In this document: positions 3,578-44,486 of the stretch, in pieces
How positions within the stretch are numbered: position 1 is the first letter of the stretch
Layout of the letters: each line of letters opens with the position of its first letter
Assembly: GCA_965203175.1 (NCBI GenBank)
Contig: OZ241867.1
Coordinates: 1,440,001 to 1,504,000 of the forward strand
Length of the DNA stretch: 64,000 nt
Reading direction: 5' to 3'
Origin: Candidatus Latescibacterota bacterium
Lineage (GTDB): Bacteria; Latescibacterota; UBA2968; UBA8231
Made by a program: the position numbers and the translations under genes
The notes under the pieces: generated by a model
Databases searched by the model: none
Told to the model about the DNA's origin: nothing
Seen by the model: the letters and a program-made list of their open reading frames with translations, nothing else

Positions 3578-3722
3578 CGGGGATCCTTTCGGCCGGGAGA
3601 AGACCGCGCAATAGTCTACAAATTTATCTCTATGCTCGTGCGCGAGCCCGGCTCACTCCCCGCTTCCTCGCCAATTCAGGTCGCTGCTGGTATAGCTATC
3701 AGTGTACTGCTGCAAATGCGCA

Positions 3723-3822
3723 GGCGGATAGGCGACGAGTTCGGCGAAAATGGGGTGGACACCGACATCAATCATGCTGCCGGTGGAGCTTGTCGGGCGC
3801 GAATTTCTTGGCTTTGAGCGTC
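3723..3822 (-). repeat. ~100-bp degenerate copy of an internal PhyH segment (1101..1201)
   Basis: ggcggataggcgacgagttcggcgaa...ttgagcgtc occurs at both sites, with a few substitutions and a 1-nt indel. Confidence 0.9.
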
Positions 3823-3843
3823 TGCTACAATACATTGCACAGA

Positions 3844-29191: not shown

Positions 29192-30226
29192 TTAGGGCGC
29201 ACTAGCCGACAAATTGTCGAAGACGATGAACTGATGCTCGGCCAGCCCCAGTTGCTCGGCTAGTTCATAACCAGCACTCATAGGCAGCGAAGGGTTCAAT
29301 TCCACAATCATCAAGTCCCGCTCCCCAGTGCCGATCTGGCCCAACTGGGCCAGTCCATCCAAGTTGCTCAGCAGGGCATTGCCGCCAACGTAGAGGCTTT
29401 TACCCACTTGCCTGAGATTATCCAACCCATCCAAGTTTTGCAGGACTTGGTTGCGGTTTATGCTCAAAGCACCTCCGATCTCCGTCAGAGCGTTCAACCC
29501 TTCCAAGCTCCTGAGGACGGGATGCTCATCAATGGCCAACCCACCCTTAACAGTCGCAATCCCGTTCAAACCCCGCAGGTCTTTGAGCGCACCATTGAAT
29601 ATGAGCAGCAAATCCCCTTCTACCACTGAGAGACTGCCCAGCCCCTTTAGATCTCGCAGGGCCTTGTTATCCCTGATTTTGATGCTACCCCCCACGTGAG
29701 TCAGCCCGCTCAGACCATCTATGTTAATCAACTCGGTCGTGGCATCGACAAAGAGATGGCCATCGACGCGCCTGAGCGCTTTAAGCCCATCCAAATCCCG
29801 CAGCGAAAAATTGCAGCTAATCTCGAAATTTCCCCCCACGCGTTCTAGCTGTTCTAACCCTTGCAGTGCAATCAATCCATTGGCGAGAATATAGAAATTT
29901 CCTTCTACATAGCTGAGATTGTGCAATCCCTTCAGGTCGGTCAGTGCCCCATTATTCCGAATTGCGAAATCTCCCTCTACTCCGACCAGATTGCGCAGCG
30001 CCTCCATGCTGCTCAAGTACGCATCCTCTAATAAAAAATCCCCCTGCACCACAAAGGCTCTCTTCTGCGCCCTCGCCCAAGCATCTAACTCCTCCTGCGA
30101 CTCAATAACTATCGCCCCAGTCCCGCCAACCGCCAGCAGCTCTTCAGCCTCCCCCTGACAGCCGATCCAAAGGGTGGCTCCCAGGACAGACGCGCCAAAA
30201 CCCCATCTCCAACTAGCCATACTCAT
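29192..30226 (-). CDS. Receptor-L-domain/LRR-like solenoid lipoprotein
   Basis: About 10 repeats of 24 aa, LxGLxxLxxVGGxLxIxxNxxL; WIGC lipobox-like motif. Confidence 0.85.
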   Translation of the reverse strand: MSMASWRWGFGASVLGATLWIGCQGEAEELLAVGGTGAIVIESQEELDAWARAQKRAFVVQGDFLLEDAYLSSMEALRNLVGVEGDFAIRNNGALTDLKGLHNLSYVEGNFYILANGLIALQGLEQLERVGGNFEISCNFSLRDLDGLKALRRVDGHLFVDATTELINIDGLSGLTHVGGSIKIRDNKALRDLKGLGSLSVVEGDLLLIFNGALKDLRGLNGIATVKGGLAIDEHPVLRSLEGLNALTEIGGALSINRNQVLQNLDGLDNLRQVGKSLYVGGNALLSNLDGLAQLGQIGTGERDLMIVELNPSLPMSAGYELAEQLGLAEHQFIVFDNLSASAP

Positions 30227-31893
30227 CCCCCCTTCACGTCTTCTTCCTCCTCTTGAATTTTCAACAAGTTATCCTCGAAAATTTCGACCGAGTACTTCTT
30301 GTGTAACCCGCGCATATACTGCACGTACGCCTTTTGCGAACGTGCAATTTTCACATAAGCCCGCGCGCGTCGCTCTGAAAAAACATGGTAGGGCTTCTTG
30401 GGGGCCGGTTGCTTCTCCTCCACCTTGAATACCGAATACCCTCCTCTCACCTTTACCGGTCCCCCGACATCCCCCACCTGCAGATCTTTGGCTACTTTGT
30501 AGATGTCTTGGTACAGCCCAATCGGACTCAAGACCAACCGCCCCTCGTGGTGCGCCCGCTCCTTGCGAATCGTATAGTCCCTAGCCAACTGCATCGCGTC
30601 GGCACCCCCCACCAACTCCTCTTTCAGGCTGTGGGCCTGCTCCTTAAAGGCCACCAGAATCTCGGTCGCGACAATGTTCTCAAAGCCCTGAAACTTCTCG
30701 GGATTTTGATCGTAAAAGGCGCGCGCCTCTGCATCGGTGATCGGCGGCAGCCGCTCCTCAACCTCTCGCTTTCTCAACGCGCTCACCAGCATATCGCTGC
30801 GCTTATTGTCCACCGCCGCGAGGATTATCTGATGTTTATCCAGTCCCTTGTTGCGGGCCTCTGCCATAAACATCCGATTGGGGATGGCCGAATCCTGTAG
30901 ATAATCGACGATCCAGGTTCGCTTGTAATCGCGCGCATACCCCTCTGCTTTTTCCGGTGCGCTCAGGACAAAATCGTCAATGGTGAGCGCGCCGCCGTTG
31001 TAGCTGCACAATACCTCTTCGCCCTCCTCAGGCGACGCCACCCGCTCTTCAGGCGACAGCGCTAGGCGCATCAGCACGTGGTCTATCTTGTCGTAGTGAA
31101 TTTGCGGCGAGTACTGGTCGCTGAGCGAATCGCGCAGACCTTGGGCGCGCTGTAGGCGCTTTTGGGCGAAAACCTCCTCCTTGACGAATTGGGCTACCTC
31201 CCGAAAGGTGACTGGAGCGTCGTCTAAAACCTTGGCGATCAAGTAGCGCTGCGGGTCGCCGCCCCATGGCAGCGGCTCGGAAACCTCGCCGACCTGCATG
31301 GAAAAGATTATCCGCAGCGGTGGAGCCGTATCGTCAATCGTATAGTACTTTTTTACATCCCCGCCCTGGTCCCGCGTCGCCTCGTAAAGCGAGTGCTCTC
31401 TGGCCAGTTGACTGAAATCAGCGCCAGCCTCTAGTTCGTCGAGCAGGTCGAGGGCCTCGTCTCGGGTCGCTACCAAAATACCCGCATAGCGCAATGCGCG
31501 ATCCCGATGCGAATCCCGGTAGTGCTGCATCAACTCCTCTTCGACAATGGAAATCCGCTGATCAATCTCGATACTTCTGTAGAGCCTGACGGTCTGCTCC
31601 TCGGCGAACTGCTTGAGCTTGTGCTTAAATTCCCGTTCGTCGCCAATGCCAGCTCGTTCCGCCTCGGCGAGCAATAGTTTCTTGTCGATCAGTCCATTGA
31701 GTAGAATCCGATCGGCCTCGACACCGGTCTTACCCATCTGGTAGGCTTTGGGAATATTCGCCGCATAGGCTCTGAACTCGCCGACGGCGATGGGTTGGTC
31801 TGCTATCTGGGCGAGCACTAGATCGTCTTGGGCTACACAGGGAAGCCAGAGCCCTAGGATGCAAACGCCTGAGCGCAGTATTCCATTCTTCAT
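30223..31893 (-). CDS. Double-parvulin PPIase/chaperone (SurA/PrsA-like)
   Basis: GADFSQLAREHS..GGD, VGEVSEP and GPVK..GYSVFKV motifs; signal peptide; 4-nt overlap with the next gene. Confidence 0.85.
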   Translation of the reverse strand: MKNGILRSGVCILGLWLPCVAQDDLVLAQIADQPIAVGEFRAYAANIPKAYQMGKTGVEADRILLNGLIDKKLLLAEAERAGIGDEREFKHKLKQFAEEQTVRLYRSIEIDQRISIVEEELMQHYRDSHRDRALRYAGILVATRDEALDLLDELEAGADFSQLAREHSLYEATRDQGGDVKKYYTIDDTAPPLRIIFSMQVGEVSEPLPWGGDPQRYLIAKVLDDAPVTFREVAQFVKEEVFAQKRLQRAQGLRDSLSDQYSPQIHYDKIDHVLMRLALSPEERVASPEEGEEVLCSYNGGALTIDDFVLSAPEKAEGYARDYKRTWIVDYLQDSAIPNRMFMAEARNKGLDKHQIILAAVDNKRSDMLVSALRKREVEERLPPITDAEARAFYDQNPEKFQGFENIVATEILVAFKEQAHSLKEELVGGADAMQLARDYTIRKERAHHEGRLVLSPIGLYQDIYKVAKDLQVGDVGGPVKVRGGYSVFKVEEKQPAPKKPYHVFSERRARAYVKIARSQKAYVQYMRGLHKKYSVEIFEDNLLKIQEEEEDVKGG

Positions 31894-31918: not shown

Positions 31919-33841
31919 TTAATAAACTAGCCGCACAACTGCGACTTCGACATCCTTGGCCTTGTCTGAATCCACTTCGAGACGCAAGAGATAGAGTCCG
32001 GGGGGTAGCAGGTTGCCCGCATCGTCCACGCCCTCCCAAGTAGCCGAAAACCGGCCACTGGCCGCTGTACTATGGGCCACCTCGCATCGCTTCACTCCCG
32101 CCAGATCGTAGAGATTGATCGTCACGGGCACATCACCGCTGAGGTTTACCAGATCGTATTCAATTTGTAGCACATCGTTGACGCCATCGCCGTTGGGAGT
32201 GAAAAGCCGCGGCGCGAGCCACAATGCCTTGACCGCTGGATTGGCCACCGTACTCAACCCGACACTTAGGGTATTGCTCTCGGCCAGATCATCGGCGTTC
32301 CCCGCCGTGATGCGCTGGCGCACTTCATGGGGGAGTTGGCTGTCGAAGACCCGGCCCGAAAACACCGTGCCCACCTGAAAGACCTCGGCCTGAAATTCGA
32401 CCTCGACCAACTCGCCCGTGCGGTTGAGATCAATTCGCGGTACTTGTACCACAAAGCTCTTCGCGTCTCTTTCCGCGATGGTAAAATCCTGTTCTTCGCC
32501 GCCAATGTACACTGCGTCAATGCTCGTGACCTCTATGGGGGTGTCGATCTCAATGCTGTCGAAGCCGAGATCACTCTGCTCTAAGTTGGGCAGGATTTTG
32601 TAGATGAATTGGACGACCTCGCCCACCTCGACTTGGTGCGGAACGATCTCGGCCAACACTTGGCTGGCCACCGGGGGTTGGGAGACATTAAACTGCAAGT
32701 ACTCCATGCGTCCGGCCGCAAGGGCTCGCTCCGAGAGGAAGTCCGCCTTGAACTGCAAGTAGCGCCGAGGCCGTGAACCCACTAATTCGGAATGGCCCCG
32801 ATCGAAATCGAGCGGCGGCGTCCAGAACTCCCAACTTTCGTTATCCGGACTAATCCCGGCTTTCTCGCCTTCCTCCAGTCTTTTATAGCGGTCTAGGGTG
32901 AGCGGTTCGCCGCTGACTGCAAAGCGAGAGCGCTCGTCGCCTCTGAACGTGAAGCGCCAATAGAAATTGGGATCCGTGTCGTCGCCGCTGCGCATGCTCA
33001 GATTGACCGTTGCGCCCTGATCTCGGCTGCCCGACCAAGTCAACTCACCTAGGCTAGAAGCCATGCCCAAATCAATGACATTGGATATATAGCTGGCCTG
33101 CGAGGCAAAGCCATCCCCGAAGATCTCAAATTCGGCGATCTCCCAATTGCCAATGGGTGCCTTAAAAAGAATTTCGGCAATGGGCCGGTCGGGCAGTTCC
33201 AAATCGAGAAAGGGCTCCAAATTATTGGCAACCGAGAACACGACATCGTAATCGAGAAAAGCCCCGCGCCAATGGTATCGCCCTTCTCGAGTTCCCTTTT
33301 TGCGCGAATCGCCATCGTTAGTGCCTATCTCGAACACCTCGATGAAGCGCTGGTGAGCAAAGCGCTCCGTGGTGGAAATTTTGATGCGGCGGATGGGAAA
33401 CAGTCCTTTTAACTCAAACCAGATGCCCTTCTTGCACGGCGAGCAGTCGGCCGACTGGCTGCGGCCACTTCCCAAATAAGCAGTGGTCAGATCCCCGTCC
33501 ATCAAGAAGTCTAAGAGGGCTTCCGATTGCCAACCGTAGGAATTGTTCGAGCGTATGCCGCCGCCCCGTTCCCGAATCAGGGGCGTCAGATTGACGGCGG
33601 GGTCTAGGCGCTGAGGCTCGATAGAATGGGGCGCGACCTCCAAGAGGTCTATCCTACCGAGCTGTTTTTCGTCCACATCAGCCCAAGACAACTGGATAAA
33701 TTCAAAGTCCCCATCCACTTCCGGCGGCGGCAGCTCCTCGCCGCCGATGCGATACACGGTGAGCGCCTCGACCGCAGCTAGCCCATAGCAAAAGCTCCCT
33801 ACTAGAGCAGCCGACAAAAGTCGCAGCAAATTCCCTCTCAT
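31919..33841 (-). CDS. Secreted protein with discoidin-like domain and FlgD-Ig/CHU_C-like tail
   Basis: DGDLTTAY, EIAEFEIFG, FTPNGDGVND...YDLAG...WEG..PPGLY motifs. Confidence 0.8.
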   Translation of the reverse strand: MRGNLLRLLSAALVGSFCYGLAAVEALTVYRIGGEELPPPEVDGDFEFIQLSWADVDEKQLGRIDLLEVAPHSIEPQRLDPAVNLTPLIRERGGGIRSNNSYGWQSEALLDFLMDGDLTTAYLGSGRSQSADCSPCKKGIWFELKGLFPIRRIKISTTERFAHQRFIEVFEIGTNDGDSRKKGTREGRYHWRGAFLDYDVVFSVANNLEPFLDLELPDRPIAEILFKAPIGNWEIAEFEIFGDGFASQASYISNVIDLGMASSLGELTWSGSRDQGATVNLSMRSGDDTDPNFYWRFTFRGDERSRFAVSGEPLTLDRYKRLEEGEKAGISPDNESWEFWTPPLDFDRGHSELVGSRPRRYLQFKADFLSERALAAGRMEYLQFNVSQPPVASQVLAEIVPHQVEVGEVVQFIYKILPNLEQSDLGFDSIEIDTPIEVTSIDAVYIGGEEQDFTIAERDAKSFVVQVPRIDLNRTGELVEVEFQAEVFQVGTVFSGRVFDSQLPHEVRQRITAGNADDLAESNTLSVGLSTVANPAVKALWLAPRLFTPNGDGVNDVLQIEYDLVNLSGDVPVTINLYDLAGVKRCEVAHSTAASGRFSATWEGVDDAGNLLPPGLYLLRLEVDSDKAKDVEVAVVRLVY

Positions 33842-33872: not shown

Positions 33873-33918
33873 ATAATAAATAAAAGAAGGGGAGGAATAG
33901 AATTCCCCCCCTTCTTTA
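33873..33918 (-). terminator. Rho-independent terminator after 33947..34867
   Basis: Stem AAAGAAGGGG(A)GGAAT/ATTCCCCCCCTTCTTT followed by a U-rich tail on the minus strand. Confidence 0.75.
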
Positions 33919-33946: not shown

Positions 33947-34867
33947 TTACTTGCCGAATGAAGCCTTGATCTGGCCCCAAGTGTTGTCTTCAACGGCTGT
34001 GGGCTCGATACCTTCAAAGGCGGACTCGTCAACGCCCAGCATCACCCAATCGGCAAAGAAATCAGCGTCGCCGAAGGACTCGACGTTGGGACCGATAGCC
34101 CAGCGCGAATGGCAGTTACAATCGTCGGATAGCTCGGCATCAGTATCGAAGACGTGCCCTGTAAGGCCGATGATCTCGTCCTGCTGGAAGTCGTGGAGGA
34201 CGCTTCCGGCGGGATCTTCCCAGTTGAAGTCGTCCCAATAGACGCTCCACCATTCGGCCCGTTGGCGCATCTCCTCAAAGGAATTGGGAGCCGTGCCGCT
34301 AAACCAATAGGCGTGATCGGAGTACGGCGGCGTGTCGTACCAGGTAGCCTGGGTCATCCAGAACCAGTTCCACTCTCCTTCACGGGCTTGGCCATTGTCG
34401 AACCAATAGTGGCTGATTTGGGCATGGCGACCGCGCTGGCGTGCCTTCTCCTCGTCGGTTTGGCCTTCCAGATCCCAGAAGGAGCCGCCCGAGTGATCGG
34501 CGTCCACAGTCGTTTCGATCGACTCGTTGCCCAACTGGTACTTGTCGTCGAAGCGCTCGTAGGCCCAGTAGATGCGGTTGGTTTCCTCGTTCCAAGTGGG
34601 AATCCAGCGGAAGGAAATCGAGGACACGTCCAAATCGCCGGTGTAGATCCACGCCCGAGTCGTGCTCTGTACGACGTTCTGCTCGGTGATCCAAAATTCC
34701 TCGGGAATGATATCCCACTCGCTCAGATCGGCATCTAAGACCGGCAAGTGAGTCTCAGGCCATTGCCACACCGCGCCGATAAAATCGGGCGGATCGTGGG
34801 CTTGTACCTGGGAGTTCAAGCCAAGCAAAAGCACGGGGGTAAATAAGACGGATAAAACTTTCTTCAA
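33947..34867 (-). CDS. Secreted CBM9/DOMON-like protein with TWGQIK tail
   Basis: TTG start after AAGGAGG; PVLDADLSEW, WNEETNRIYW..DD and VDADHSGG motifs; ends TAVEDNTWGQIKASFGK. Confidence 0.7.
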   Translation of the reverse strand: MKKVLSVLFTPVLLLGLNSQVQAHDPPDFIGAVWQWPETHLPVLDADLSEWDIIPEEFWITEQNVVQSTTRAWIYTGDLDVSSISFRWIPTWNEETNRIYWAYERFDDKYQLGNESIETTVDADHSGGSFWDLEGQTDEEKARQRGRHAQISHYWFDNGQAREGEWNWFWMTQATWYDTPPYSDHAYWFSGTAPNSFEEMRQRAEWWSVYWDDFNWEDPAGSVLHDFQQDEIIGLTGHVFDTDAELSDDCNCHSRWAIGPNVESFGDADFFADWVMLGVDESAFEGIEPTAVEDNTWGQIKASFGK

Positions 34868-34967: not shown

Positions 34968-37883
34968 TCACTTTAAGCCGGCGATAATCGACAGAAAACT
35001 CAAGCCCGAGGTCTCGATTTCTCGGCTCCGGTCAACTACCTCTATCGAGCGGCGGTCGAGGCGGATGCCCACTTGAGTAGTTAGCTCATACCCTAAGTAT
35101 TGGCTGATATTGGTGAGTTGAAGCGCCAAAACCGAGCCGCGAAAATCCCCGGTGAACAGCCCCTCCTCCAACTCATCTTCTCCTTCGAGGTCGAAGAAAG
35201 AGCGCTGCTCCAAGCCGAACTCGAACTCGGTGGTCTCAAGCACGGGGATGCTGCCGACAAAGAAAAAGAGGCCGTCCCAAGAGCGCCGCTCGTCGAATGC
35301 TCGGCTAAAGGGCACCTCGCGCAGAAATTCGCTCTTGAATTTGGGCCTGAGACTCAGCGACCGCCAAGAAAAGACATATTCTATCTTATTGATCAGCCCG
35401 ACAAAGCCCGAGGTCTGTCGCCCATTGCGCCCCTCGGGGCCCAGCGGGTCAAAGTCCACCACAGAATCGCCGGCCTCATCCGATGCGTCGCGCAAAAATT
35501 CGACCTCGCTGGCGCGCTGCCGCCAAGTCTCCCACTTAAAGCGATGCAGGGTCTGCCACAAATGCGGGCTAGAGTACTCCCAATCGACGTAAAAAGTGTT
35601 GATCCAAGTGTTCTCCGCAGCTAGGGGATCCAATACCGGCACATTGCTGCCAGCCGACTCGGACGCCGCGCCGAATGTGCTCCTAGGGATGATCCATTGC
35701 ACCAAGTGGTCGGCGATCGCGTCTTCGGCCTTCTTAACCATGTCGAAAATCCGCAGACGGCCCCACCGCGACCCGCTCTGCTCCAAGATGAACATTCCAT
35801 AGCTAGTCAGATTGCGGTGGTCGGTTGCCAAGCGGATTTGCCGCAATTGACCTACCCGTAGCTGGATACCCGGTGCCACCTCGATCCCGCCGAAGACGTT
35901 GTACCCCCAGTGATCTCGCTTGTAGGGATAGTCCGGCTCTTGATCGTTCTCAAAGCGCTCCACCCACCTATTGTTGTTGAGATCAATGCCGAAGAGAAAT
36001 TCCGGGCGATCCGCGGCATAGCGCAAAAAAGGCTCGTCGTAGTCGGGGAAAAAATTTACCCGATCGACGGTGCTATTCTGATTGAAATCCGATATGAAGT
36101 CGCGATTCTCGTCATAACCGGGGAAAACCGCCGGATCGGACACGCCGCGGACCTCGATTTCGCGGCGGCGCTCGGTGGGGACAAAGCTGCCCTCGCCCAC
36201 CCGCAGCCAGTCGGGCTGCCGGTCGTTGTCGTCGTTGTCATCTACAAATTCGTAGTGCAGGTTGACGGCCTCGGGGGCGTAGTCCGACACCCCGTCTCGA
36301 TTGACGGTCAGGACGCTGGTGCGGTACCCATTTTCCATACCAAATCCCTCGCCCCTAAAGCTCCAAGGCCCCTCCCGGAAGGCCAAATTGACCAACCATC
36401 CTACTTCATGGGAATCCCCCTCAATGCCGCTGATCGCACGATGGGAATCGCGACCTATGCTGGGGTATTTTCGGTACTGGGTATTGAGGTTTATTTCTCC
36501 GTAAAAATCGAAGCCGTGAAAATCCCGCACCTCGGCCGTCAGACCGACGATCTGGTTGGCCGTAGGTAGCCCATAGTCGAAGACGACCTCGCGCTGATTC
36601 AGTTGGTTCTTGATATTGCCATCGGCCCGCGCCACAGGTAAAAATTGCGGCACGTTAAATTTGTCCGTCTGCCTATTGGAACTGACCCCGACGCGGTAAT
36701 CGTTGGCTAGCACGAGGCGAAAGCGCACGTCTCGAATGGCGCTAATCGCGGCTTCGGCCTCAGATAGGGTGAGATCTAGGTGTTGCTGGAAGAGCGCACG
36801 CAAGGTTCCCTCTTCCCCCGTCGTCTCCCTAGGAGCCAAGTGATATTGCAAAATGATCTGGTCGGCACCATCGGCCGTTAGAAATCCCCGGTCTATCTTC
36901 CCTCCCGCAATGGTCGGTCTAAAGCCGATACTGCTGCTGAGGATGACGGTATCCCGCTCCACGTGAACTAGCCGGTCCCCAATCATCTCCTGACGGCTTA
37001 GGGTAGTGCGGATCTCGATCTCCTCGCTAACCAAGACGGCACCACCTTCGCCATCTTCTGGCGAGTCGTCCGAGAGCCGTACCAAGAGCAGATCAACTCG
37101 CTGAGCCAGTTGCCCCGCCGTCAGGGCACCCTTGAACACATTCCCTTGGAAGCTCTCGTTGCTGCCGGTGTTGTTGTGGCTGTTGACGAAGTTCATCCCC
37201 AACGTAAAAGAATCAGTCAAGTCGGCTTCAACTCGACCCGCGGTGAGGTTGGTAGCGTACTGGAAACGCGCGGTGCCCCCCGAAAGGAGCGGGAACGAAA
37301 TCCGCGAGAAAAGCCCCGTAGCGCGAAAGCGGTCTGCGGCAAAGTCAGCTACTACCCCGTTAAACCCCGCCTTGCGGAAAGTCATCGGCGTTAGGGTAGT
37401 CCATATCTCGTCTCCGACCATCACCGAATAGCGGTACTGGCCTTTGGAGTCCCCAGATATGACCAAGCGACTAAACCAGTTGTTGTACGGAGCACTTTTC
37501 CTGATGGAGGAACTCTCGGCGATCAGTGGTTTTGTCTGGCGCCAGTCGTACACCAGCCAGCCTCGCGTAATGAGGCGCCCGAAGGGATCGTAGAAGAGAT
37601 CCCCCTCTGACGCGGGGTTGATATAGCGCCTGTGGGCTTGGCGGGCGTAGTTGGTGTACTCCCACTGATTGCGGCCAAATTCGCCAAACAGGGGGGCCGG
37701 TATGTACCAGCGCTGCACAGTCGGATCCAGCGCCTCCATATAAGTAGTTACGCCGGGCACGTGGTAAATGACGCGGTCTCCCACCCGATCCCCTAGACGG
37801 CCCCCGTAGTCGACTTGCGCAGCGGCAACCCCCCACAGACCCAACCCGGCTAAGGCAGCCAATGTGATGTAACGCGCCTTCAT
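34968..37883 (-). CDS. Large secreted hypothetical protein, paralog B (possible outer-membrane beta-barrel)
   Basis: Signal peptide; collinear homology with 37886..40669; amphipathic strands at the C-terminus. Confidence 0.75.
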   Translation of the reverse strand: MKARYITLAALAGLGLWGVAAAQVDYGGRLGDRVGDRVIYHVPGVTTYMEALDPTVQRWYIPAPLFGEFGRNQWEYTNYARQAHRRYINPASEGDLFYDPFGRLITRGWLVYDWRQTKPLIAESSSIRKSAPYNNWFSRLVISGDSKGQYRYSVMVGDEIWTTLTPMTFRKAGFNGVVADFAADRFRATGLFSRISFPLLSGGTARFQYATNLTAGRVEADLTDSFTLGMNFVNSHNNTGSNESFQGNVFKGALTAGQLAQRVDLLLVRLSDDSPEDGEGGAVLVSEEIEIRTTLSRQEMIGDRLVHVERDTVILSSSIGFRPTIAGGKIDRGFLTADGADQIILQYHLAPRETTGEEGTLRALFQQHLDLTLSEAEAAISAIRDVRFRLVLANDYRVGVSSNRQTDKFNVPQFLPVARADGNIKNQLNQREVVFDYGLPTANQIVGLTAEVRDFHGFDFYGEINLNTQYRKYPSIGRDSHRAISGIEGDSHEVGWLVNLAFREGPWSFRGEGFGMENGYRTSVLTVNRDGVSDYAPEAVNLHYEFVDDNDDNDRQPDWLRVGEGSFVPTERRREIEVRGVSDPAVFPGYDENRDFISDFNQNSTVDRVNFFPDYDEPFLRYAADRPEFLFGIDLNNNRWVERFENDQEPDYPYKRDHWGYNVFGGIEVAPGIQLRVGQLRQIRLATDHRNLTSYGMFILEQSGSRWGRLRIFDMVKKAEDAIADHLVQWIIPRSTFGAASESAGSNVPVLDPLAAENTWINTFYVDWEYSSPHLWQTLHRFKWETWRQRASEVEFLRDASDEAGDSVVDFDPLGPEGRNGRQTSGFVGLINKIEYVFSWRSLSLRPKFKSEFLREVPFSRAFDERRSWDGLFFFVGSIPVLETTEFEFGLEQRSFFDLEGEDELEEGLFTGDFRGSVLALQLTNISQYLGYELTTQVGIRLDRRSIEVVDRSREIETSGLSFLSIIAGLK

Positions 37884-37885
37884 CC

Positions 37886-40669
37886 TTACAGTCCGGCGTA
37901 GATGGTGATAAAGCTAGTGGTCTCGGTCCGGCCTTTGGTGAGCTTGTCGAAGACCCGAGGTTCTACCTCCCGCACCGTCTCGGTGAAGGTGCGGCCGATG
38001 CGTAGGCCAAGCTGCGTCGTCAGCTTGTAACCCAAATAGTTCGAGTTGTTGGTTAGCTGCACCGCAAAAACCGCAGAGCGCAAATCACCGGTCTCTTCGG
38101 CGATGCCTTGCTCGACCATATCCTCCTCCTGCTGTACCAGTTCGTTGAACTGGGCCAACTCCACCCCAAAGTCGACTACGCTGCTGTTGAGTAGGGGTAC
38201 TTGAGCCAGAAGCGAGGCAATCCCAGTCCATTGTTTTAAGTCTTCTTCGGCTAGCACAAAGGCGTCTTGACGGAAGTACTCACTTTTGAGCCTAGGCTGT
38301 AGGAGGAAGCGGCCTAGGTGCAGCTTGTACTCGAATTTGTTGATCAAGCCCAAGAGGGAGGACGAACCGGCCAGTGTCCGGCCGTCGATGTCGCGAGCCT
38401 CATCTTGGGCTTGGCTGTAGTGCTCGTATTTGAGTTTGTTGACGATCTCGAAATTGGCAATGGCGGTGTAGTCTACCCCCAGCCACGCGGTGTTGATCCA
38501 GGTATCGGGAAAGACCAGCATATCCGCCACCAGCGGCGGCGTGGGCGCGTCGAGGAAGGGTAGCGGTGCCCGCCGGTCATCGGGAATGGTGTCCGCGACC
38601 CGCTTGAGCATATCGAAGACCCGCACCCGCCCAAAACCGGGGTAATCCTTGTCGAGGGTGAACATGGCATACGCGGTTTGGTTGTCCCGATCGTCCGAGA
38701 GCATGCGCTCGTCGAGCCGCCCTACCAGTAAGCGCGCCTCGGGTAAGAGGTGGATGCCAAAAAAGACATTGTAACCGCGCCGGTCGGGCTTGTAGGGATA
38801 GTCGGCCAACTCGTCATCTTCAAAGCGGTCGATCCAGCCGTTGTTGTTGAGGTCAATGCCAAAGAGGAATTCGGGCCGATCAACGTGATAGCGCAAAAAC
38901 GGCTCTTCGTAGTCGGGAATGGAGTTGGGCACCGAGCGGTTGTCGTTTTGGTTGAAGTCCGAAATGAAGTCGAGGTTTTCGTCCCAGCCAGGAAACACCT
39001 CCCGGTCATTGGCCTGTGAGCCTACCCGAGCCCAGTCGGGCCGGCGGTCTTGGTCGTCGTTGTCGGCGACAAATTCGTAAACCGAGCGGATGGGATCGTC
39101 GTAGAACACGTCCCCCCCGGGCAGGGAGACAAAAGCCGAGGTCGAATAGTCGGCATCCACCGAATAGGCTTCGCCATAAGTAAAAAACGGGTAGGCCTCT
39201 TTGGCCAGATTGAAGATAGTGGCCTGACCACTCTCCGCAGAGATCTCGTGCCCTTCGTTGGCGTTGAATAGGGCGGCATTCGGGTACTGGAAATAGCGCA
39301 GGTTGTTGTTCCATTCGCCGTAGAAATCAAATCCCCACACGTTCTTGCCTTCGATAGTGAATCCGGCGATCATGTTGGCCGAAGGCAAGCCGTAGTTGAA
39401 AAGAACCCGCTGGGCGTTGGATATGTCTTTTATATTGCCGGAGGCCCGCCTTATGTTGATGAGAACCGGATCGGCTTCTTCAATGACTTGGTTGGTCAGC
39501 GGCGGCGGCGGCACCGGGCGCGTGCCCGTCTGCAGATTGGACCACATTTCGACCTTGAAATCATTGGCTAGCACATAGTCGAACTCCACTTCGACTATAG
39601 AAGTTAGATCCGGCCCCACATACGCCGGGTCCGTAAAGTCGTAATTGAGGATGATTCGCTCGGTGCCGTCGGCGGCCACAAAGCCAGTGCGCGGAAAGCC
39701 GCCGAATACGGTCGGCCACTCCGCTCCCTCGCGCACCACCTCGTCCAACGTCAAGACCGTCTCTAGACCCGTCTCGAAATCGCGACTCTTGATGCGTATA
39801 TCGTGGCTGAAAAGGGCTGCGCCGCCCTCTTCGTCCTCGGGGCTGTCGTCGCTGAGGACGATAGCTATGGCCGTAACCGGCGTACTGGTCTGGCCCGAGG
39901 TGAGGTTGCCCGCGAGGAGATTGCCTTCAAACATGTCCAAGGTGGTATTGGCGTTGTGGGCGTTGACCAAGGTCCCGCCCACCGTAATAAAGTCGCCTAC
40001 CTGAGCGAGAGCCCGGCCACCGAGCAGAGAGGTCGAATTGGACTGCCGCCTAGGATTGATGGTCACGCCCACGGCCGGATCATTGATCCGCGAGGCCAGT
40101 ACGGTGGCGGCGTATTTGTCCGAGGCGAAGTCGATCTGGACTCCGTTGAAATTCGGCTTGGAAAAAGTCATCGGCGTGAGGGTGGTGCGAATCGCGTTGC
40201 CCACGGTAATGGCGTAGGAGTACTGGCCCCTAGAGTCGCCGCTTACGGTTACCGAACTGAAGAACTGCTCGAATTGGCGGCCCTTGAAAATACCACTGCC
40301 CAGCTCTTGGGGCTGATCTTGGCGCCAGTCGTACACCAGCCAGCCGCGGTTGATATAGTTGCCGAAAAAATCGTAGAAGTAGTCGCCCTCTAAGTTGGTG
40401 TTGATATAGCGCTGGTACTGGTCGCGGGCGTAATTGGAGTACTCCCATTGGCGCCACCTGAACTCGTAGTAGAGTTCTTGGGGCACGTACCATCTCTGTA
40501 CGGCGGGATCTAGGGCTCCAAAGAGTACACCTGGGCCCCGGGGCTCAAAACTGACTTCGCCGCCGCGCTGAATCCCTAGGCGGGTGCCGTAGTTTTGGGC
40601 GTGGAGCACGGTTTGGAACGCGACCAACAGTGCCAGCCCAATCGTTAAATTCACTCCGCGGACATTCAA
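37886..40669 (-). CDS. Large secreted hypothetical protein, paralog A (possible outer-membrane beta-barrel)
   Basis: TTG start after GGAGG; signal peptide; ends TSFITIYAGL. Confidence 0.75.
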   Translation of the reverse strand: MNVRGVNLTIGLALLVAFQTVLHAQNYGTRLGIQRGGEVSFEPRGPGVLFGALDPAVQRWYVPQELYYEFRWRQWEYSNYARDQYQRYINTNLEGDYFYDFFGNYINRGWLVYDWRQDQPQELGSGIFKGRQFEQFFSSVTVSGDSRGQYSYAITVGNAIRTTLTPMTFSKPNFNGVQIDFASDKYAATVLASRINDPAVGVTINPRRQSNSTSLLGGRALAQVGDFITVGGTLVNAHNANTTLDMFEGNLLAGNLTSGQTSTPVTAIAIVLSDDSPEDEEGGAALFSHDIRIKSRDFETGLETVLTLDEVVREGAEWPTVFGGFPRTGFVAADGTERIILNYDFTDPAYVGPDLTSIVEVEFDYVLANDFKVEMWSNLQTGTRPVPPPPLTNQVIEEADPVLINIRRASGNIKDISNAQRVLFNYGLPSANMIAGFTIEGKNVWGFDFYGEWNNNLRYFQYPNAALFNANEGHEISAESGQATIFNLAKEAYPFFTYGEAYSVDADYSTSAFVSLPGGDVFYDDPIRSVYEFVADNDDQDRRPDWARVGSQANDREVFPGWDENLDFISDFNQNDNRSVPNSIPDYEEPFLRYHVDRPEFLFGIDLNNNGWIDRFEDDELADYPYKPDRRGYNVFFGIHLLPEARLLVGRLDERMLSDDRDNQTAYAMFTLDKDYPGFGRVRVFDMLKRVADTIPDDRRAPLPFLDAPTPPLVADMLVFPDTWINTAWLGVDYTAIANFEIVNKLKYEHYSQAQDEARDIDGRTLAGSSSLLGLINKFEYKLHLGRFLLQPRLKSEYFRQDAFVLAEEDLKQWTGIASLLAQVPLLNSSVVDFGVELAQFNELVQQEEDMVEQGIAEETGDLRSAVFAVQLTNNSNYLGYKLTTQLGLRIGRTFTETVREVEPRVFDKLTKGRTETTSFITIYAGL

Positions 40670-40729
40670 TGCCCATCCTCCCAATTCTGCATGGTAAAAT
40701 TCATCGCGAGGAAATCTCCTCGCCTAGCA

Positions 40730-43000
40730 TCAATACGCTACCCCGACAACCCCCACCCGTTTCTCCTCTCCGGTCCCCGCATCCAAAGCAACGGAAAAGA
40801 TATAATGGCCTGGAGGGACCGCATTGTCTTCATCGTCGCGCCCGTCCCAAAAACGGGGGAATCGACCGCTCACATCCAAGCCTTCGTAGAGGTTGCGGAT
40901 TAGCCGGCCACTCAAATCGTAGATCCCAAGCCGCACCCGAGTCGGATGGGCGATGTTGGTGATATCGTAGGTAATGGCCGCCCGCTCGTTGACCCCGTCG
41001 CCATTCGGGGTAAAAACGCTGGGGACGGCTGCCACATTCACTAGCAGCTCGTCGGTGATCGGCACGTTGACAAAGAGGTTTTCTGGATCGAGAGTACCCA
41101 CGGCTCTGCGGTCGGGATCATCCATGCCCTCCCGACTCAAATCTGCGGCATTACCGGCCAACACCACTTGACCCAACACCTCGTTGTCGGCGTTGAGCGC
41201 CCGGCTGGCAAAGCGAGTTCCTAGGCGTAGGACCGTATTCTCAAATTCCAAGGTCAAGAGCACCCCATCCTCCTCAATCCGCGGGAAGGCCATGACCAAG
41301 GCGTCGTCGCGCACAGCCACTACGCTAAAGCCATTCTGCTCGACTGGAAGATCCGCGAGGGACAAGCCGGAAAAATCCGCCGTTGCTGCCGTGCCGTCGG
41401 GCTGGCGTATTTCCACTTGGCCAATCGATTCGGTGCGCAGCGGTGTGCTGATTTCAAAGCGGTCAAAGCCCGCATTCTGGGGCTTGGATTTGACCAAGAC
41501 TCCATACGTGAAGCGGGTAGCTTGGCCTAAAATAGCGGTGCGAGGCAAAATCTCGCCGATGAGAGAGTCGGCGAAAACGGGCTGGAAAACATCCCAAGCC
41601 ACCCCGCCGATGCCAGTAGCTGCATCGACATCGGCGTTGAAGAATTCGATCATAACTTGAAAATAGCGCCGCGGACTAGGCGAAACGATCAGCGTCCCCG
41701 CCCCTTGCACCTGCAGTTGGTCTGGGGCCACAATCCCCTCGGGCGAATAGGGGGGAGACCAAGGGCTCCAATTGGTGAGGTCTTCGCGAATTACCGATTT
41801 TTGGCCGCTCGCTAGCTTGTTGTAGCTCGCTTGGTCAAGGGTGATCTGGGCCCGCTGTGCAAAAGGCAACTGGCCAAAACTCAAAAGCGCCTCGCGCCCG
41901 TCTATCTCTTCGTTGTCGAGGACGTTGGCGACCAGATTTTTGAGTTCGCTGTCTTCTACATCTTCGGCCTCCTTCCAAGGCACGTCGATCGGGATGTCGA
42001 AAACGGTATCGCCTCGCTGTTCAACGCGGCCAGAGGATTGGCTGCCGATTCGGGTGAACTCGACCGGCTGGGGATCAACCCCAGAGCGGGTGCGGACCTG
42101 CACCCTAGAGCGAGTTGGATCGCCCACCTGCTCTTCAACCCAGCGCAAGCGGCCCAAAAGCGCTTGGTCGCCAAAGTCGAATACGTTGGAAATGTACACG
42201 GCCTGTGGCACAAAGCCCTCGCTGAACACTTGAAACTCGGCGATCTCAAAGTCCGCGGCCGTCAGAGACTTGAGCCGCAAAAAGCGCACGAAGCGGGTGG
42301 GGATTCGCACGTCCACCACCGCTTCTTGGTTCTGCCCCTCAAAGGCGACAGTTTCCCAGATCAGACTGCCCTCGCGGCGCGATTCGGGCTGGCCGTCATT
42401 GACGAAAATTTCGTAGCCCTTCAAAAAGTCGTCTTGGGACTGGAAATCAGGTGCCGGAAAGGCCGGATCGGCGTTGCGCGGAAAAAATTTGAACCGATTG
42501 ACGCCAAAGATGGCCCCCAAATCGAATTCGATGAGTAGGCCAAAGGCCCCGGTGCCCCCCGTGCCCGAGGATTTCAGCACTAGAGCGGTGTTTCCGTCGT
42601 CGTCGAACATCTGGGGAAAATCGGCTTCGAGAAAGCGGAAGGAGGGAATGGGCGTGAAGACGCTGCCACCGCGCTTCTTAGAGTTGACGCCGATCAATAT
42701 GTTGTCCGTCGTATCGGCCTGCTGCGGAAAGATCCAACGTTCGCGCTCAAAGGGCGCAAAGTCGATGACGCCGCCGGGCGCATTGGACTGATCGACAGTC
42801 GCCGGATCGAGGATTACTAGGGCCGGAATCTCCCCACCACCACTCTCCCAAGACAACCCACCCTCGCCCCCCAGTTGGACAACCTCTATTTGGGCACCAA
42901 CCGGCGACTGGGCGAGGGCTAAAAACAGAATAAGCACCCTAAGCGCGATCCGCCGCCTGTAGTCCTTTCGACCTGCCATGAATTGTAGCATGGTTGGCAT
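40730..43000 (-). CDS. Secreted protein with discoidin-like domain and FlgD-Ig/CHU_C-like tail
   Basis: FDLGAIFGVNRFKFFPR, EIAEFQVF, SPSPRRY and FTPNGDGVNE...WDGRD..PPGHY motifs. Start uncertain (42979-43066). Confidence 0.8.
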   Translation of the reverse strand: MPTMLQFMAGRKDYRRRIALRVLILFLALAQSPVGAQIEVVQLGGEGGLSWESGGGEIPALVILDPATVDQSNAPGGVIDFAPFERERWIFPQQADTTDNILIGVNSKKRGGSVFTPIPSFRFLEADFPQMFDDDGNTALVLKSSGTGGTGAFGLLIEFDLGAIFGVNRFKFFPRNADPAFPAPDFQSQDDFLKGYEIFVNDGQPESRREGSLIWETVAFEGQNQEAVVDVRIPTRFVRFLRLKSLTAADFEIAEFQVFSEGFVPQAVYISNVFDFGDQALLGRLRWVEEQVGDPTRSRVQVRTRSGVDPQPVEFTRIGSQSSGRVEQRGDTVFDIPIDVPWKEAEDVEDSELKNLVANVLDNEEIDGREALLSFGQLPFAQRAQITLDQASYNKLASGQKSVIREDLTNWSPWSPPYSPEGIVAPDQLQVQGAGTLIVSPSPRRYFQVMIEFFNADVDAATGIGGVAWDVFQPVFADSLIGEILPRTAILGQATRFTYGVLVKSKPQNAGFDRFEISTPLRTESIGQVEIRQPDGTAATADFSGLSLADLPVEQNGFSVVAVRDDALVMAFPRIEEDGVLLTLEFENTVLRLGTRFASRALNADNEVLGQVVLAGNAADLSREGMDDPDRRAVGTLDPENLFVNVPITDELLVNVAAVPSVFTPNGDGVNERAAITYDITNIAHPTRVRLGIYDLSGRLIRNLYEGLDVSGRFPRFWDGRDDEDNAVPPGHYIFSVALDAGTGEEKRVGVVGVAY

Positions 43001-43090
43001 ATCTGTCTGATTCGACTGCTCTGGGCTAAGGCAAATAACTGTATGAAATACGAGAGGATACAGCAACCAAAATCCGGCAACGCATAGCAG

Positions 43091-44437: not shown

Positions 44438-44486
44438 TGTGGATTCTCGGGCTAAAATTCCCTTGGTCAACGCGAAGGACCCAAAG

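What the first reader, a model, noticed from the sequence alone, without database searches (positions are those of the whole stretch)
34968..40669. Tandem pair of ~950-aa paralogs with acidic Ca-binding-like loops and barrel-like ends
Seen: shared blocks in the same order in both proteins: ALDP.VQRWY.P, WEY.NYAR..RYIN..EGD.FYD.FG..I.RGWLVYDWRQ, TTLTPMTF.K..FNGV, LSDDSPED.EGGA, YEFV.DNDD.DR.PDW, VFPG.DEN.DFISDFNQN, EPFLRY..DRPEFLFGIDLNNN.W..RFE.D...DYPYK and LQ/VQLTN...YLGY.LTTQ.G.R. They end IYAGL and IIAGLK. The C-terminal ~300 aa alternate hydrophobic and polar residues. Inference: a heterodimeric or split outer-membrane beta-barrel with Ca-binding insertions, from a family I cannot name.
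Basis: partly seen in the sequence, partly recalled or inferred. Interest (0 to 1): 0.8.

Follow-up and report, generated by a model that had tools for sequence, protein, structure and literature searches.

The report
Paired giant outer-membrane barrels, unnamed family
Two adjacent genes each encode a complete, very large outer-membrane barrel protein of an unnamed family that this Latescibacterota-type genome carries in 62 copies, almost always just downstream of a secreted surface-protein gene, which points to an undescribed cell-surface system.

Summary
Window 34968-37883 (971 aa) and 37886-40669/40684 (927/932 aa), minus strand, are 40% identical over their full length. Neither protein has a Pfam, NCBIfam or PDB-sequence match.

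AlphaFold2 models (pTM 0.80 and 0.63) are long beta-hairpin barrels; I count about 30 strands. All significant Foldseek hits and all listed VIA hits are outer-membrane barrels (MtrB, Deinococcus SlpA, LptD, SprA). Each protein is a whole barrel, not half of a split one.

All 62 paralogs in the genome carry 3-6 DxDxDxxxD acidic motifs in one large insert.

- The 62 copies form 48 arrays: 36 singles, 10 doublets, 2 triplets.
- 43 of 48 arrays sit directly downstream of 1-3 genes for T9SS type-B-like CTD proteins.
- A CBM9-like secreted protein and a two-parvulin PPIase are usually nearby.
- Upstream and downstream doublet members form separate clades with mirrored branching.
- 71 of 73 related loci keep the pair.

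Best reading (0.45): these are the outer-membrane partners, as anchor, shuttle or channel, of the adjacent CTD proteins. This resembles PorP/SprF or SusC in role but not in homology. Function is inferred, not shown.

The parts
34968..37883 (-). Downstream ('D-type') barrel gene, 971 aa (P0001): signal peptide, about 70-aa conserved N-terminal segment, about 30 predicted strands
   Evidence: AF2 model me6d92264a9ff has pLDDT 79.4 and pTM 0.80.
37886..40684 (-). Upstream ('U-type') barrel gene, 932 aa as the longest ORF. The likely start is TTG at 40669 (927 aa). The stop lies 3 nt before the D-type start codon.
   Evidence: AF2 model m2c6541e446ad has pLDDT 69 and pTM 0.63.
35913..36248 (-). 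Acidic insert of P0001 (residues about 546-657) between predicted strands 17 and 18. Motifs: NDDNDRQPD, DENRDFISD, DFNQNSTVD, DLNNNRWVE.
   Evidence: motifs; nearly invariant D/N columns; no regular secondary structure; pLDDT falls to about 40 between residues 561 and 590
38783..39073 (-). Acidic insert of P0002 (residues about 538-634). Motifs: NDDQDRRPD, DENLDFISD, DLNNNGWID.
40730..43066 (-). c0 gene directly upstream of the pair: secreted protein of up to 778 aa with a discoidin-like region and a C-terminal CHU_C / type-B-like T9SS sorting domain (FTPNGDG motif)
33947..34867 (-). c7 gene directly downstream of the pair: 306-aa secreted Trp-rich CBM9-like protein with an invariant His after the signal-peptide site and a conserved C-terminal TAVE..SWG.IK tail
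33883..33917 (-). 16-bp terminator-like hairpin just after the c7 stop, the likely end of the c0-U-D-c7 unit
   Evidence: strongest of 13 terminator-like sites; 9.9 expected in shuffles, so the site class as a whole is not enriched
31919..33841 (-). Second c0 paralogue (640 aa) with a CHU_C domain
30223..31893 (-). c10: periplasmic PPIase with two parvulin domains (SurA/PpiD/PrsA-like), one of 38 paralogs

Best explanation
Each gene encodes a complete outer-membrane beta-barrel of about 30 strands. The family is undescribed and was seen here only in Latescibacterota-type genomes, some labelled Gemmatimonadota. Each barrel has a conserved N-terminal segment of about 70 aa. It also has a large insert, probably extracellular or folded into the lumen, that carries 3-4 Ca-binding-like DxDxDxxxD loops.

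The two genes are a conserved two-barrel module (U-type then D-type, 3 nt apart) that has been duplicated and inherited as a unit. The family is the membrane core of a cassette repeated about 48 times in this genome. A typical cassette reads: 1-3 type-B-like T9SS CTD proteins, then one or more barrels, with a CBM9-like secreted protein and a SurA-like PPIase usually nearby.

Most likely mechanism (inferred): after export, the CTD proteins encoded directly upstream dock on their cognate barrel. The barrel anchors or shuttles them at the cell surface, as PorP/SprF do for type B cargo in Bacteroidota. The wide barrel may also serve as the conduit of the complex. The PPIase chaperones barrel or cargo in the periplasm. 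The U and D barrels probably act side by side as a hetero-oligomer.

Shown: sequences, paralogy, gene order, phyletic pattern. Predicted: fold. Inferred: location, Ca binding, partner docking, hetero-oligomer. The confidence given (0.45) is for the functional reading; that each protein is a complete giant outer-membrane barrel I hold at about 0.9.
For: Fold. The AF2 models have pTM 0.80 and 0.63. Foldseek found 104 and 29 PDB hits at E <= 0.001; the significant listed ones are all outer-membrane barrels, topped by MtrB at 5.5e-9, SlpA at 4.7e-8 and LptD at 5.8e-8. VIA: SlpA Z 13.8 over 424 aligned residues, MtrB Z 11.7 over 424, SprA Z 10.5 over 439. Both proteins have signal peptides. Cys content is 0.11%, like the genome's TonB-dependent transporters (TBDTs, 0.13%) and unlike other large proteins (0.76%). 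Aromatic content is 12.7%.

Family. No Pfam, NCBIfam or PDB-sequence match, even with a profile. More than 805 homologues, and 659 clusters at 50% identity. 62 paralogs in the genome.

Cassette.
- 43 of 48 arrays are directly preceded on the same strand by 1-3 c0 genes, at a median gap of about 16 nt.
- Within 10 kb of a barrel, which is 15.2% of the genome, lie c0 121/169, c7 34/44, c10 33/38 and c16 15/18.
- Control families in the same zone: c1 5/66, c9 2/40, c12 1/34.
- The genome's 31 TBDTs lack these neighbours: c0 1/31, c7 0/31, c10 1/31.

c0 carries CHU_C above the Pfam cut-off (33.1, 30.6 and 30.6 bits against 27). NCBI names one homologue 'T9SS type B sorting domain-containing protein'. 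In F. johnsoniae, type B substrates are often genetically linked to cognate PorP/SprF shuttles (abstract of PMC12618676; passages of PMC9143113). No PorP/SprF gene was recognisable here.

Pair. U and D members form separate clades with mirrored branching. 71 of 73 related loci with at least 3 kb downstream have a D-type gene within 3.5 kb, 59 of them adjacent. 58 of 65 have a c0-like ORF just upstream.

Phyletic pattern. Barrel in 72 of 121 genomes sampled from the phylum; c0 in 54 of 121; every listed c0-positive genome is among the barrel-positive ones.

RNA libraries. Contigs from 4 metatranscriptomic studies cover the genes and bridge c7-D, D-U and U-c0.
Against: No binding, location or transport has been measured. 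Several observations cut against the reading.
- The barrel is not homologous to PorP/SprF, and about 30 strands is far more than an anchor needs.
- Only 74 of 169 c0 genes lie in runs directly upstream of a barrel. 48 of 169 are more than 10 kb from any barrel. 5 of 48 arrays have no c0 upstream. A one-to-one cognate pairing therefore cannot be general.
- The c0 CTDs are below the NCBIfam TIGR04131 cut-off (24.1, 16.9 and 21.6 bits against 35).
- GldM/PorM was not detected with two models (the first rang in no control genome, the second only weakly in two that lack T9SS). The T9SS of this organism may be atypical.
- Sequence-only checks of strand amphipathicity were not significant: 45 of 500 shuffles reached the observed alternation, and a window measure places the family between TBDTs and other proteins.
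- The C-terminus does not end in an aromatic residue.
- I could not inspect the model coordinates, so barrel closure and the strand count rest on DSSP strings and fold matches.
- RNA libraries can contain DNA, and the contigs are only about 92-99% identical.
Confidence: 0.45

Rival explanations
1. The barrels are TonB-independent import channels of PUL-like nutrient loci. In this reading c0 (discoidin-like) and c7 (CBM9-like) capture a glycan at the surface, the barrel lets it through, and the DUF6785/DUF6784 membrane protein (c5) takes it across the inner membrane. The role would resemble SusC/SusD without a plug. This overlaps with the best explanation rather than excluding it.
For: Carbohydrate-binding-type domains occur in cassette partners. 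F5_F8_type_C is found in a window c0. CBM9_1 is found in 3 of 14 c7 paralogs, best E 3.7e-6. c5 is polytopic, has 53 paralogs, and 24 of them lie within 10 kb of a barrel, a zone that holds 15% of the genome. The cassette is highly multiplied, like PULs. The barrel is wide.
Against: No Plug or TonB_dep_Rec match at E <= 1, while the same Plug model finds 31 TBDTs in this genome. No energy coupling is evident. No glycoside hydrolase or sulfatase family is enriched next to the barrels; c6 has 7/46, which is background, and I did not annotate c6. An open 30-strand pore would need a plug, which is not identified.
Confidence: 0.25
2. The barrels are dedicated protein-export pores, usher-like or mini-SprA-like. 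They would export the adjacent CTD proteins or the c7-type proteins carrying the C-terminal SWGxIK tail, independently of the classical T9SS motor.
For: Solved barrels of 24-36 strands that match the models mostly pass or sheathe macromolecules: FimD/PapC, SprA, LptD, MtrB. A PPIase accompanies the barrel, and SprA is solved with a PPI (title of entry 8gl8). GldM/PorM was not detected, although the genome encodes 169 c0 proteins and 103 matches to the type A CTD model, most of them above its cut-off. 84 proteins carry a conserved C-terminal tag of unknown receptor.
Against: A SprA-like 2133-aa ORF and a PorV-like gene exist, so a T9SS route is available. The absence of GldM is unverified. The tag also occurs in families that are not near barrels; c13 has 4 of 25 members within 10 kb.
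Confidence: 0.12
3. The barrels are structural or antigenically variable surface proteins. Abundant Ca-bridged barrels would stabilise the envelope or surface layer, as SlpA does, and would be multiplied for variation (phage or host evasion) rather than for transport.
For: The best VIA match is the SlpA barrel (Z 13.8). The acidic loops are conserved. Paralogy is extreme. Near-identical DNA is held by runs labelled sponge or marine metagenome from several studies, a host-associated setting where surface variation is plausible.
Against: No SLH or peptidoglycan-binding domain. The most conserved parts are the loops and N-terminus rather than hypervariable ones. The tight operon link to c0, c7 and PPIase is not explained.
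Confidence: 0.08
4. One reading: the two proteins are halves of one split barrel.
For: The genes are adjacent with a 3-nt gap and are co-inherited.
Against: Each models as a full barrel with pTM up to 0.80. The two align over their full length with each other. 36 of 62 paralogs are single. No fused long form was found (weak evidence).
Confidence: 0.03

Closest known systems
PorP/SprF shuttle-anchor proteins of the Bacteroidota T9SS
   Same: An outer-membrane barrel gene sits directly next to the gene of a type-B(-like) CTD protein and exists in many cognate copies. The proposed role is docking or anchoring of that cargo (PMC9143113 passages; PMC12618676 abstract).
   Different: PorP/SprF are 14-stranded FadL-like barrels of about 300 aa. 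The proteins here have about 30 strands and 930-970 aa, with no PF11751 or TIGR03519 similarity. Binding is not shown here.
Deinococcus SlpA 30-stranded barrel, MtrB, LptD, SprA (giant outer-membrane barrels with solved structures)
   Same: These are the best structural matches and belong to a similar size class. My DSSP count of about 30 strands equals the strand number I recall for SlpA.
   Different: TM-scores are only 0.15-0.33 with 6-10% identity. There is no SLH domain, no LptD/OstA domain, no decahaem partner, and the size is under half that of SprA. There is no sequence relationship.
SusC/SusD-type PUL transporters (TonB-dependent)
   Same: A multi-copy cassette logic: an outer-membrane barrel plus surface carbohydrate-binding-type partners.
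   Different: No plug, no TonB box identified, and no TBDT barrel signature. Partners are CTD-sorted proteins rather than lipoproteins. The cassette proteins do not neighbour the genome's 31 real TBDTs.
Thrombospondin type-3 / DxDxDG-class calcium loops
   Same: Serial D/N-x-D/N-x-D/N-x-x-x-D/E motifs, 3-6 per protein, in 62 of 62 paralogs. The naming of the motif class is recalled, not from a call.
   Different: No Pfam TSP_3 or EF-hand hit at E <= 1. Ca binding is untested.
DUF5916-type proteins (CBM9-like domain fused to an outer-membrane barrel) and DUF6029
   Same: A CBM9-like module is associated with a large barrel. Here it is in trans, as c7 next to the barrel. DUF6029 was the nearest named Atlas cluster, score 0.89, a lead only.
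   Different: The DUF5916 architecture is recalled from memory and was not tested. There was no Pfam hit to either family.

Membership tests
Outer-membrane beta-barrel proteins (general) | N-terminal Sec signal peptide | tested here: met
   MKARYITLAALAGLGLWGVAAAQ / ...LALLVAFQTVLHAQ, read from the sequence. Most of the 62 paralogs show a similar N-terminus. No predictor was run.
Outer-membrane beta-barrel proteins (general) | Closed antiparallel barrel of membrane-spanning strands | tested here: met
   Prediction only. AF2 pTM 0.80 and 0.63. All significant listed Foldseek hits and all listed VIA hits are outer-membrane barrels. Coordinates were not inspected. The simple amphipathicity tests were not significant.
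Outer-membrane beta-barrel proteins (general) | C-terminal beta-signal ending in an aromatic residue | tested here: inconclusive
   The family consensus is ...F-[IV]-T-[VI]-[YF]-A-G-L-x. The last residue is E, L, D, Q or R in most copies and F in 3 of 62. An aromatic residue sits at about position -5.
TonB-dependent transporters / SusC | Plug domain (PF07715) and TonB_dep_Rec barrel signature | tested here: not met
   No hit at E <= 1 in either protein. The same Plug model finds 31 genes above its cut-off in this genome.
PorP/SprF (T9SS) | PF11751 / TIGR03519 sequence signature; 14-strand barrel of about 300 aa | tested here: not met
   No Pfam or NCBIfam hit. The proteins are 930-970 aa with about 30 strands.
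PorP/SprF (T9SS) | Gene adjacent to a type B CTD cargo gene | tested here: met
   43 of 48 arrays are directly preceded by a c0 (CHU_C) gene. 58 of 65 related loci show the same.
SprA/Sov translocon | SprA_N (PF14349) signature, size above 2000 aa | tested here: not met
   No hit in the two proteins. The genome's single SprA_N match lies elsewhere, in a 2133-aa ORF.
LptD / BamA-Omp85 / fimbrial usher | Family Pfam signatures (LptD and OstA; Bac_surface_Ag and POTRA; Usher) | tested here: not met
   No Pfam hit at E <= 1. Structural matches have TM of at most 0.34.
SlpA-type S-layer/outer-membrane barrels | N-terminal SLH domain plus 30-strand barrel | tested here: inconclusive
   No SLH hit. 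The barrel part is the best VIA match, Z 13.8, rmsd 8.2 over 424 residues.
Ca-binding DxDxDG / TSP3-like loops | Serial acidic loop motifs; measured Ca binding | tested here: inconclusive
   The motif occurs 3-6 times in 62 of 62 paralogs, against 0.3 expected. No Pfam TSP_3 or EF-hand hit. Ca binding is not testable here.
T9SS type B CTD (for the upstream partner c0) | CHU_C (PF13585) / TIGR04131 domain at the C-terminus | tested here: inconclusive
   CHU_C scores 33.1, 30.6 and 30.6 bits against a cut-off of 27, which is met. TIGR04131 scores 24.1, 16.9 and 21.6 against 35, which is below cut-off. The FTPNGDG motif is present. NCBI names one homologue type B.

The most novel reading that the evidence does not exclude
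The cassette may be a phylum-specific, TonB-independent surface machine that has not been described. Its hub would be a giant Ca-loop barrel, single or as a U/D hetero-pair, on which T9SS-type lectin-like proteins dock. Through or onto that hub, a CBM9-like protein with a mature N-terminal His (a possible histidine-brace metal site) and a new C-terminal SWGxIK docking tag would be presented. Multiplied about 48-fold, the cassette families would take up about 15% of the genome. The system would be a Latescibacterota counterpart of the Bacteroidota SusCD/PUL paradigm, built from entirely different parts.
Probability: 0.25. Interest if true: 0.85.

Novelty: new variant of a known kind. Interest (0 to 1): 0.7.

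Why it matters
Outer-membrane barrels of 26 or more strands are rare. Each solved example (LptD, MtrB, SprA, SlpA) revealed a distinct envelope mechanism.

This family has no name in Pfam or NCBIfam. It has hundreds of sequence clusters in metagenomes and 62 copies in one genome. Together with its cassette partners it occupies about 15% of that genome. It is therefore probably central to how these uncultured bacteria deal with their surroundings. Near-identical sequence is held by runs labelled sponge and marine metagenome.

The strict gene order, with a type-B-like CTD gene followed by the barrel, gives a directly testable hypothesis about how T9SS-type cargo is handled outside Bacteroidota. 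The conserved U/D pair offers a rare case of a possibly hetero-oligomeric giant barrel.

Tried and rejected
- Complex prediction of P0002 (residues 30-932) with the CTD of the upstream c0 (residues 683-778) gave no verdict. Two runs fell under the mark, so this is evidence neither way. The full U+D, barrel+c7 and barrel+whole-c0 complexes exceed the 1000-residue limit and were not tried.
- A search for fused forms of 1632-4660 aa found none. This is weak evidence.
- PorP/SprF (PF11751, TIGR03519) and GldM (TIGR03517, PF12081) searches of the genome found nothing significant. The control genomes did not ring usefully, so absence is not shown.
- Sequence-only barrel checks (alternating hydrophobicity within predicted strands, window moment) did not separate the family clearly.
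- Sigma-70-like promoter matches were not above the shuffled expectation: 3 found against 3.9.
- The first maximum-likelihood tree run did not finish. FastTree was used instead, so support values are SH-like only.
- The Atlas lead to DUF6029 (0.89) was not confirmed by Pfam.
- Literature searches found no description. 'DUF6785' returned 0 papers. No listed paper held a Latescibacter term together with T9SS, outer-membrane, PUL or beta-barrel terms. One Latescibacterota sponge-MAG paper, PMC12993501, has no occurrence of outer membrane, secretion system, TonB, porin or paralog. Supplements were not seen.
- Parts of the stretch without RNA-contig cover in some runs are not interpreted.
Full report
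**1. Observation**

The minus strand carries two ORFs, 34968-37883 (971 aa, P0001) and 37886-40684 (932 aa, P0002). They are 40% identical (391/974, 618 bits) from end to end. The ninth needs different spacer lengths. It gives 927 aa, like the closest homologues at 925-927 aa. GC content (0.556-0.579) lies within the window's range.

**2. What the proteins are**

Neither protein matches any Pfam-A or NCBIfam model at E <= 1, apart from one chance-level hit. Neither matches any PDB sequence, alone or as an 81-sequence profile.

Homologues are plentiful. More than 805 proteins were found among the scored candidates, all unnamed or 'hypothetical'. There are 659 clusters at 50% identity with E <= 0.001.

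AlphaFold2 results:
- The 36-sequence alignment gave pLDDT 69 and pTM 0.63 for P0002.
- The 81-sequence alignment gave pLDDT 79.4 and pTM 0.80 for P0001.
- Both models are series of long beta-hairpins from about residue 100 (P0001) or 145 (P0002) to the last residue.

From the DSSP string I count 30 strands. There are 17 before and 13 after a 140-residue insert, and the same 13 appear. This count was made without coordinates.

Foldseek against the PDB gave 104 hits (P0001) and 29 hits (P0002) at E <= 0.001. The significant listed ones are all outer-membrane barrels. The top hits are MtrB at 5.5e-9, SlpA at 4.7e-8 and LptD at 5.8e-8, followed by SprA, ushers and TBDTs. TM-scores are low, 0.15-0.33 for the large barrels. 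The Foldseek-independent VIA search ranks the Deinococcus SlpA barrel first (Z 13.8, 424 aligned). MtrB follows (Z 11.7, 424 aligned), then SprA (Z 10.5, 439 aligned). All listed rows are membrane beta-barrels, bacterial outer-membrane proteins plus mitochondrial and chloroplast homologues such as VDAC, Tom40, SAM and TOC.

Both proteins have signal peptides. Cys is nearly absent (0.11%, against TBDTs at 0.13% and other large proteins at 0.76%). Aromatic content is high at 12.7%.

Against this, two crude sequence-only amphipathicity tests were not significant. The C-terminus (consensus F-I-T-V-Y-A-G-L-x) does not end in an aromatic residue.

I conclude, with about 0.9 confidence, that each gene encodes a complete giant outer-membrane barrel of a family without a name.

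**3. Conserved special features**

(a) The mature N-terminus is conserved from its first residues (Q-x-Y-G-x-R-L-G...). It is followed by the ALDPxVQRWY and WEYxNYAR blocks. This segment has low model confidence.

(b) The insert between predicted strands 17 and 18 holds the most conserved columns of the whole family. It contains [DN]x[DN]x[DN]xxx[DE] motifs 3-6 times in 62 of 62 paralogs, against 0.3 per protein in shuffles. Examples are NDDQDRxPD, DENNDFISD and DLNNNGWID. These look like DxDxDG/TSP3-type calcium loops (class name recalled). Pfam sees no TSP_3 or EF-hand, and Ca binding is untested. By loop parity counted back from the C-terminus, the insert is on the extracellular side or folded into the lumen. 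This is inference.

**4. Copy number and pairing**

An HMM of alignment A1 finds 62 paralogs of 861-1049 aa in the 6.58-Mb genome, which is 2.6% of its bases (one search agrees). They form 48 arrays: 36 singles, 10 doublets and 2 triplets.

In a FastTree phylogeny, 8 of the 12 upstream members form one clade and 9 of the 12 downstream members another. Each clade also holds one member of a pair split by a PPIase gene. The internal branching of the two clades is mirrored. For example, U_1477886+U_3301115 correspond to D_1474968+D_3298173, and the same holds for the triads at 903-909 kb, 3658-3664 kb and 5383-5389 kb. Support values are SH-like only. The doublet therefore duplicated as a unit.

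Of the best 78 loci retrieved from other genomes with the U-type profile, 77 had a family ORF. Of 73 with at least 3 kb downstream, 59 have a D-type gene within 150 nt and 12 more within 3.5 kb. Two do not. One of these (L037) is a scoring artefact where the pair is visible. The other is L052. These loci are close kin and not independent.

The pair is thus a conserved module, but most family members work alone. A split barrel is not supported. A U/D hetero-oligomer is plausible but untested. No fused form of 1632 aa or more was found (weak evidence).

**5. Context**

Greedy gene calls and BLAST clustering show a repeated cassette. The gene directly upstream on the same strand is:
- a c0 gene for 43 of 62 barrels;
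- another barrel for 14 of 62.

Put another way, 43 of 48 arrays are preceded by runs of 1-3 c0 genes (74 c0 genes in all) at gaps of about 16 nt.

The zone within 10 kb of a barrel is 15.2% of the genome. Cassette families are concentrated there and control families are not:

| Family | Within 10 kb of a barrel |
|---|---|
| c0 | 121/169 |
| c7 | 34/44 |
| c10 | 33/38 |
| c16 | 15/18 |
| c4 (TPR) | 38/55 |
| c3 (FG-GAP/UnbV_ASPIC) | 30/58 |
| c5 (DUF6785+DUF6784) | 24/53 |
| c1 (control) | 5/66 |
| c9 (control) | 2/40 |
| c12 (control) | 1/34 |

The 31 TBDTs of the genome do not share these neighbours (c0 1/31, c7 0/31, c10 1/31).

What the partners are:
- c0 proteins are about 760 aa. They have an unassigned body, a discoidin-type region in some, and a C-terminal CHU_C domain above the Pfam cut-off. 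They are below the TIGR04131 cut-off and carry the FTPNGDG motif. One homologue is named 'T9SS type B sorting domain-containing protein' by NCBI.
- c7 is a secreted Trp-rich protein. 3 of 14 paralogs hit CBM9_1, best E 3.7e-6.
- c10 has two parvulin domains, with weak similarity to PrsA/PpiD-type isomerases.

In the window the order on the minus strand is c0(778)-U-D-c7, followed by a 16-bp terminator-like hairpin, then c0(640)-PPIase.

The genome has a SprA_N match in a 2133-aa ORF, a PorV-like gene below cut-off, and 103 matches to the type A CTD model (TIGR04183), most of them above its cut-off. It has no recognisable PorP/SprF or GldM; the controls were uninformative.

**6. Distribution and expression**

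In 121 genomes sampled from the phylum, the barrel profile matches 72 at E <= 1e-10: own family 40/40, and two sister families 0/29 and 0/13. The c0 profile matches 54 at E <= 1e-30. Every c0-positive genome listed is also barrel-positive. Kin are not independent, and absences are 'not found in those searched'.

Record titles of related loci are Latescibacterota MAGs, some labelled Gemmatimonadota, plus one short contig labelled Myxococcales.

Contigs from four metatranscriptomic libraries of four studies lie on the region at 90-99% identity. They cover 19-30 of 30 bins. Records bridge c7-D (3508 nt), D-U (two runs) and U-c0 (4989 nt). This is compatible with transcription of relatives of the module. 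It is not proof, because DNA may be present in RNA libraries and contigs carry no strand or end information.

Leaving the best holders out as a possible source, further DNA holders are runs labelled sponge or marine metagenome from several studies.

**7. Mechanism**

Shown:
- sequence family and copy number;
- gene order;
- co-duplication of the pair;
- phyletic co-occurrence.

Predicted:
- a barrel fold of about 30 strands.

Inferred:
- outer-membrane location;
- Ca loops;
- partner contacts.

The arrangement of a type-B-like CTD gene followed by an outer-membrane barrel gene is the arrangement known for type B cargo and its cognate PorP/SprF shuttle or anchor. The sources are PMC12618676 (abstract seen) and PMC9143113 (passages seen). 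No PorP/SprF is recognisable here.

I therefore favour, at 0.45, that these barrels are the cognate outer-membrane partners of the adjacent CTD proteins, acting as anchor or shuttle and possibly also as the conduit. The PPIase would be a periplasmic chaperone.

The rivals are:
- a TonB-independent glycan import channel of PUL-like loci (0.25, overlapping with the best reading);
- a dedicated export pore (0.12);
- a structural or variable surface protein (0.08);
- a split barrel (0.03).

Points against the favoured model:
- the barrel is very large for an anchor;
- c0 and barrel numbers do not match;
- 95 of 169 c0 genes are not directly upstream of a barrel;
- the CTD assignment is at sub-threshold level in NCBIfam.

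**8. Comparison and novelty**

The family fails the tested defining features of TBDT/SusC, PorP/SprF, SprA, LptD, Omp85 and ushers (see the membership table). It resembles SlpA, MtrB and LptD only in fold class and size. It works like PorP/SprF or SusC at most by analogy.

I found no description in print. The searches were made, plus the term search of PMC12993501.

I rate it a new variant of a known kind: a new giant-barrel family with its own cassette. Interest is 0.7.

Noticed in passing
window 33947-34867 (-) and 13 paralogs (L087-L099): In the c7 family, a His follows the AxA signal-peptidase site in 14 of 14 aligned paralogs, so the mature protein would start with His. A second invariant His (in DADHSGG) and an invariant Tyr are also present. 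This resembles a histidine-brace metal site on a CBM9-like fold. It is a speculative reading and no metal test was done.
   Followed up: partly
whole genome G000; in the window 33947-34867 (-) and 3553-4968 (+): The motif [ST]W[GA]x[IVL]K occurs 90 times. 84 of these lie within 12 residues of a C-terminus: 37 in c7, 18 in c13, 29 in others, mostly secreted proteins of 150-380 aa. About 5 occurrences would be expected anywhere by shuffling. It is preceded by T-A-V-E and has no TM helix. It is a candidate undescribed C-terminal sorting or docking tag.
   Followed up: partly
window 23761-25710 (+), 1418-3577 (-): DUF6785+DUF6784 polytopic membrane proteins have 53 paralogs in the genome, 24 of them within 10 kb of a barrel gene. 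No paper in the library mentions DUF6785.
   Followed up: partly
window 30223-31893 (-): The two-parvulin PPIase has 38 paralogs, 33 of them within 10 kb of a barrel gene. That is an unusual multiplication of a periplasmic chaperone-type protein.
   Followed up: partly
G000:C1:3038565-3039407, 2795486-2796268 and others: The c16 family (about 270 aa, 18 paralogs, 15 within 10 kb of a barrel) has lipoprotein-like signal peptides, with a Cys after the hydrophobic stretch. These are possible barrel-associated lipoproteins. None lies in this window's cassette.
   Followed up: no
G000:C1:5640422-5650904, 6156224-6164891, 6511322-6519563, 2792466-2802400: A divergent barrel subfamily (about 25-32% identity to P0001) occurs as triplets or near-triplets. 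Members cluster by position in the array. Neighbours include about 1085-aa c36 proteins.
   Followed up: no
whole genome G000: A SprA_N match (2133-aa ORF), a PorV-like gene and 103 type A CTD matches are present. GldM/PorM was not detected with TIGR03517 or PF12081. This could mean an atypical T9SS or models that are too narrow.
   Followed up: partly
window 29192-30226 (-) and 43091-44470 (-): Secreted proteins carry Receptor L domain (PF01030) and LRR-type repeats, a domain best known from animal receptors. There are 4 paralogs in the genome, 2 of them near barrels.
   Followed up: no
window 27440-29146 (-): A 568-aa membrane protein matches the LA_3751/LA_3752 putative glycosyltransferase family at 184 bits, just under the cut-off of 200. 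It lies in the same co-directional gene run as the cassette.
   Followed up: no
window 21221-23755 (+): An 844-aa protein combines MFS-like transmembrane segments, a spermidine-synthase-like domain and a TPR. It has 8 paralogs (c29), 5 of them within 10 kb of a barrel.
   Followed up: no
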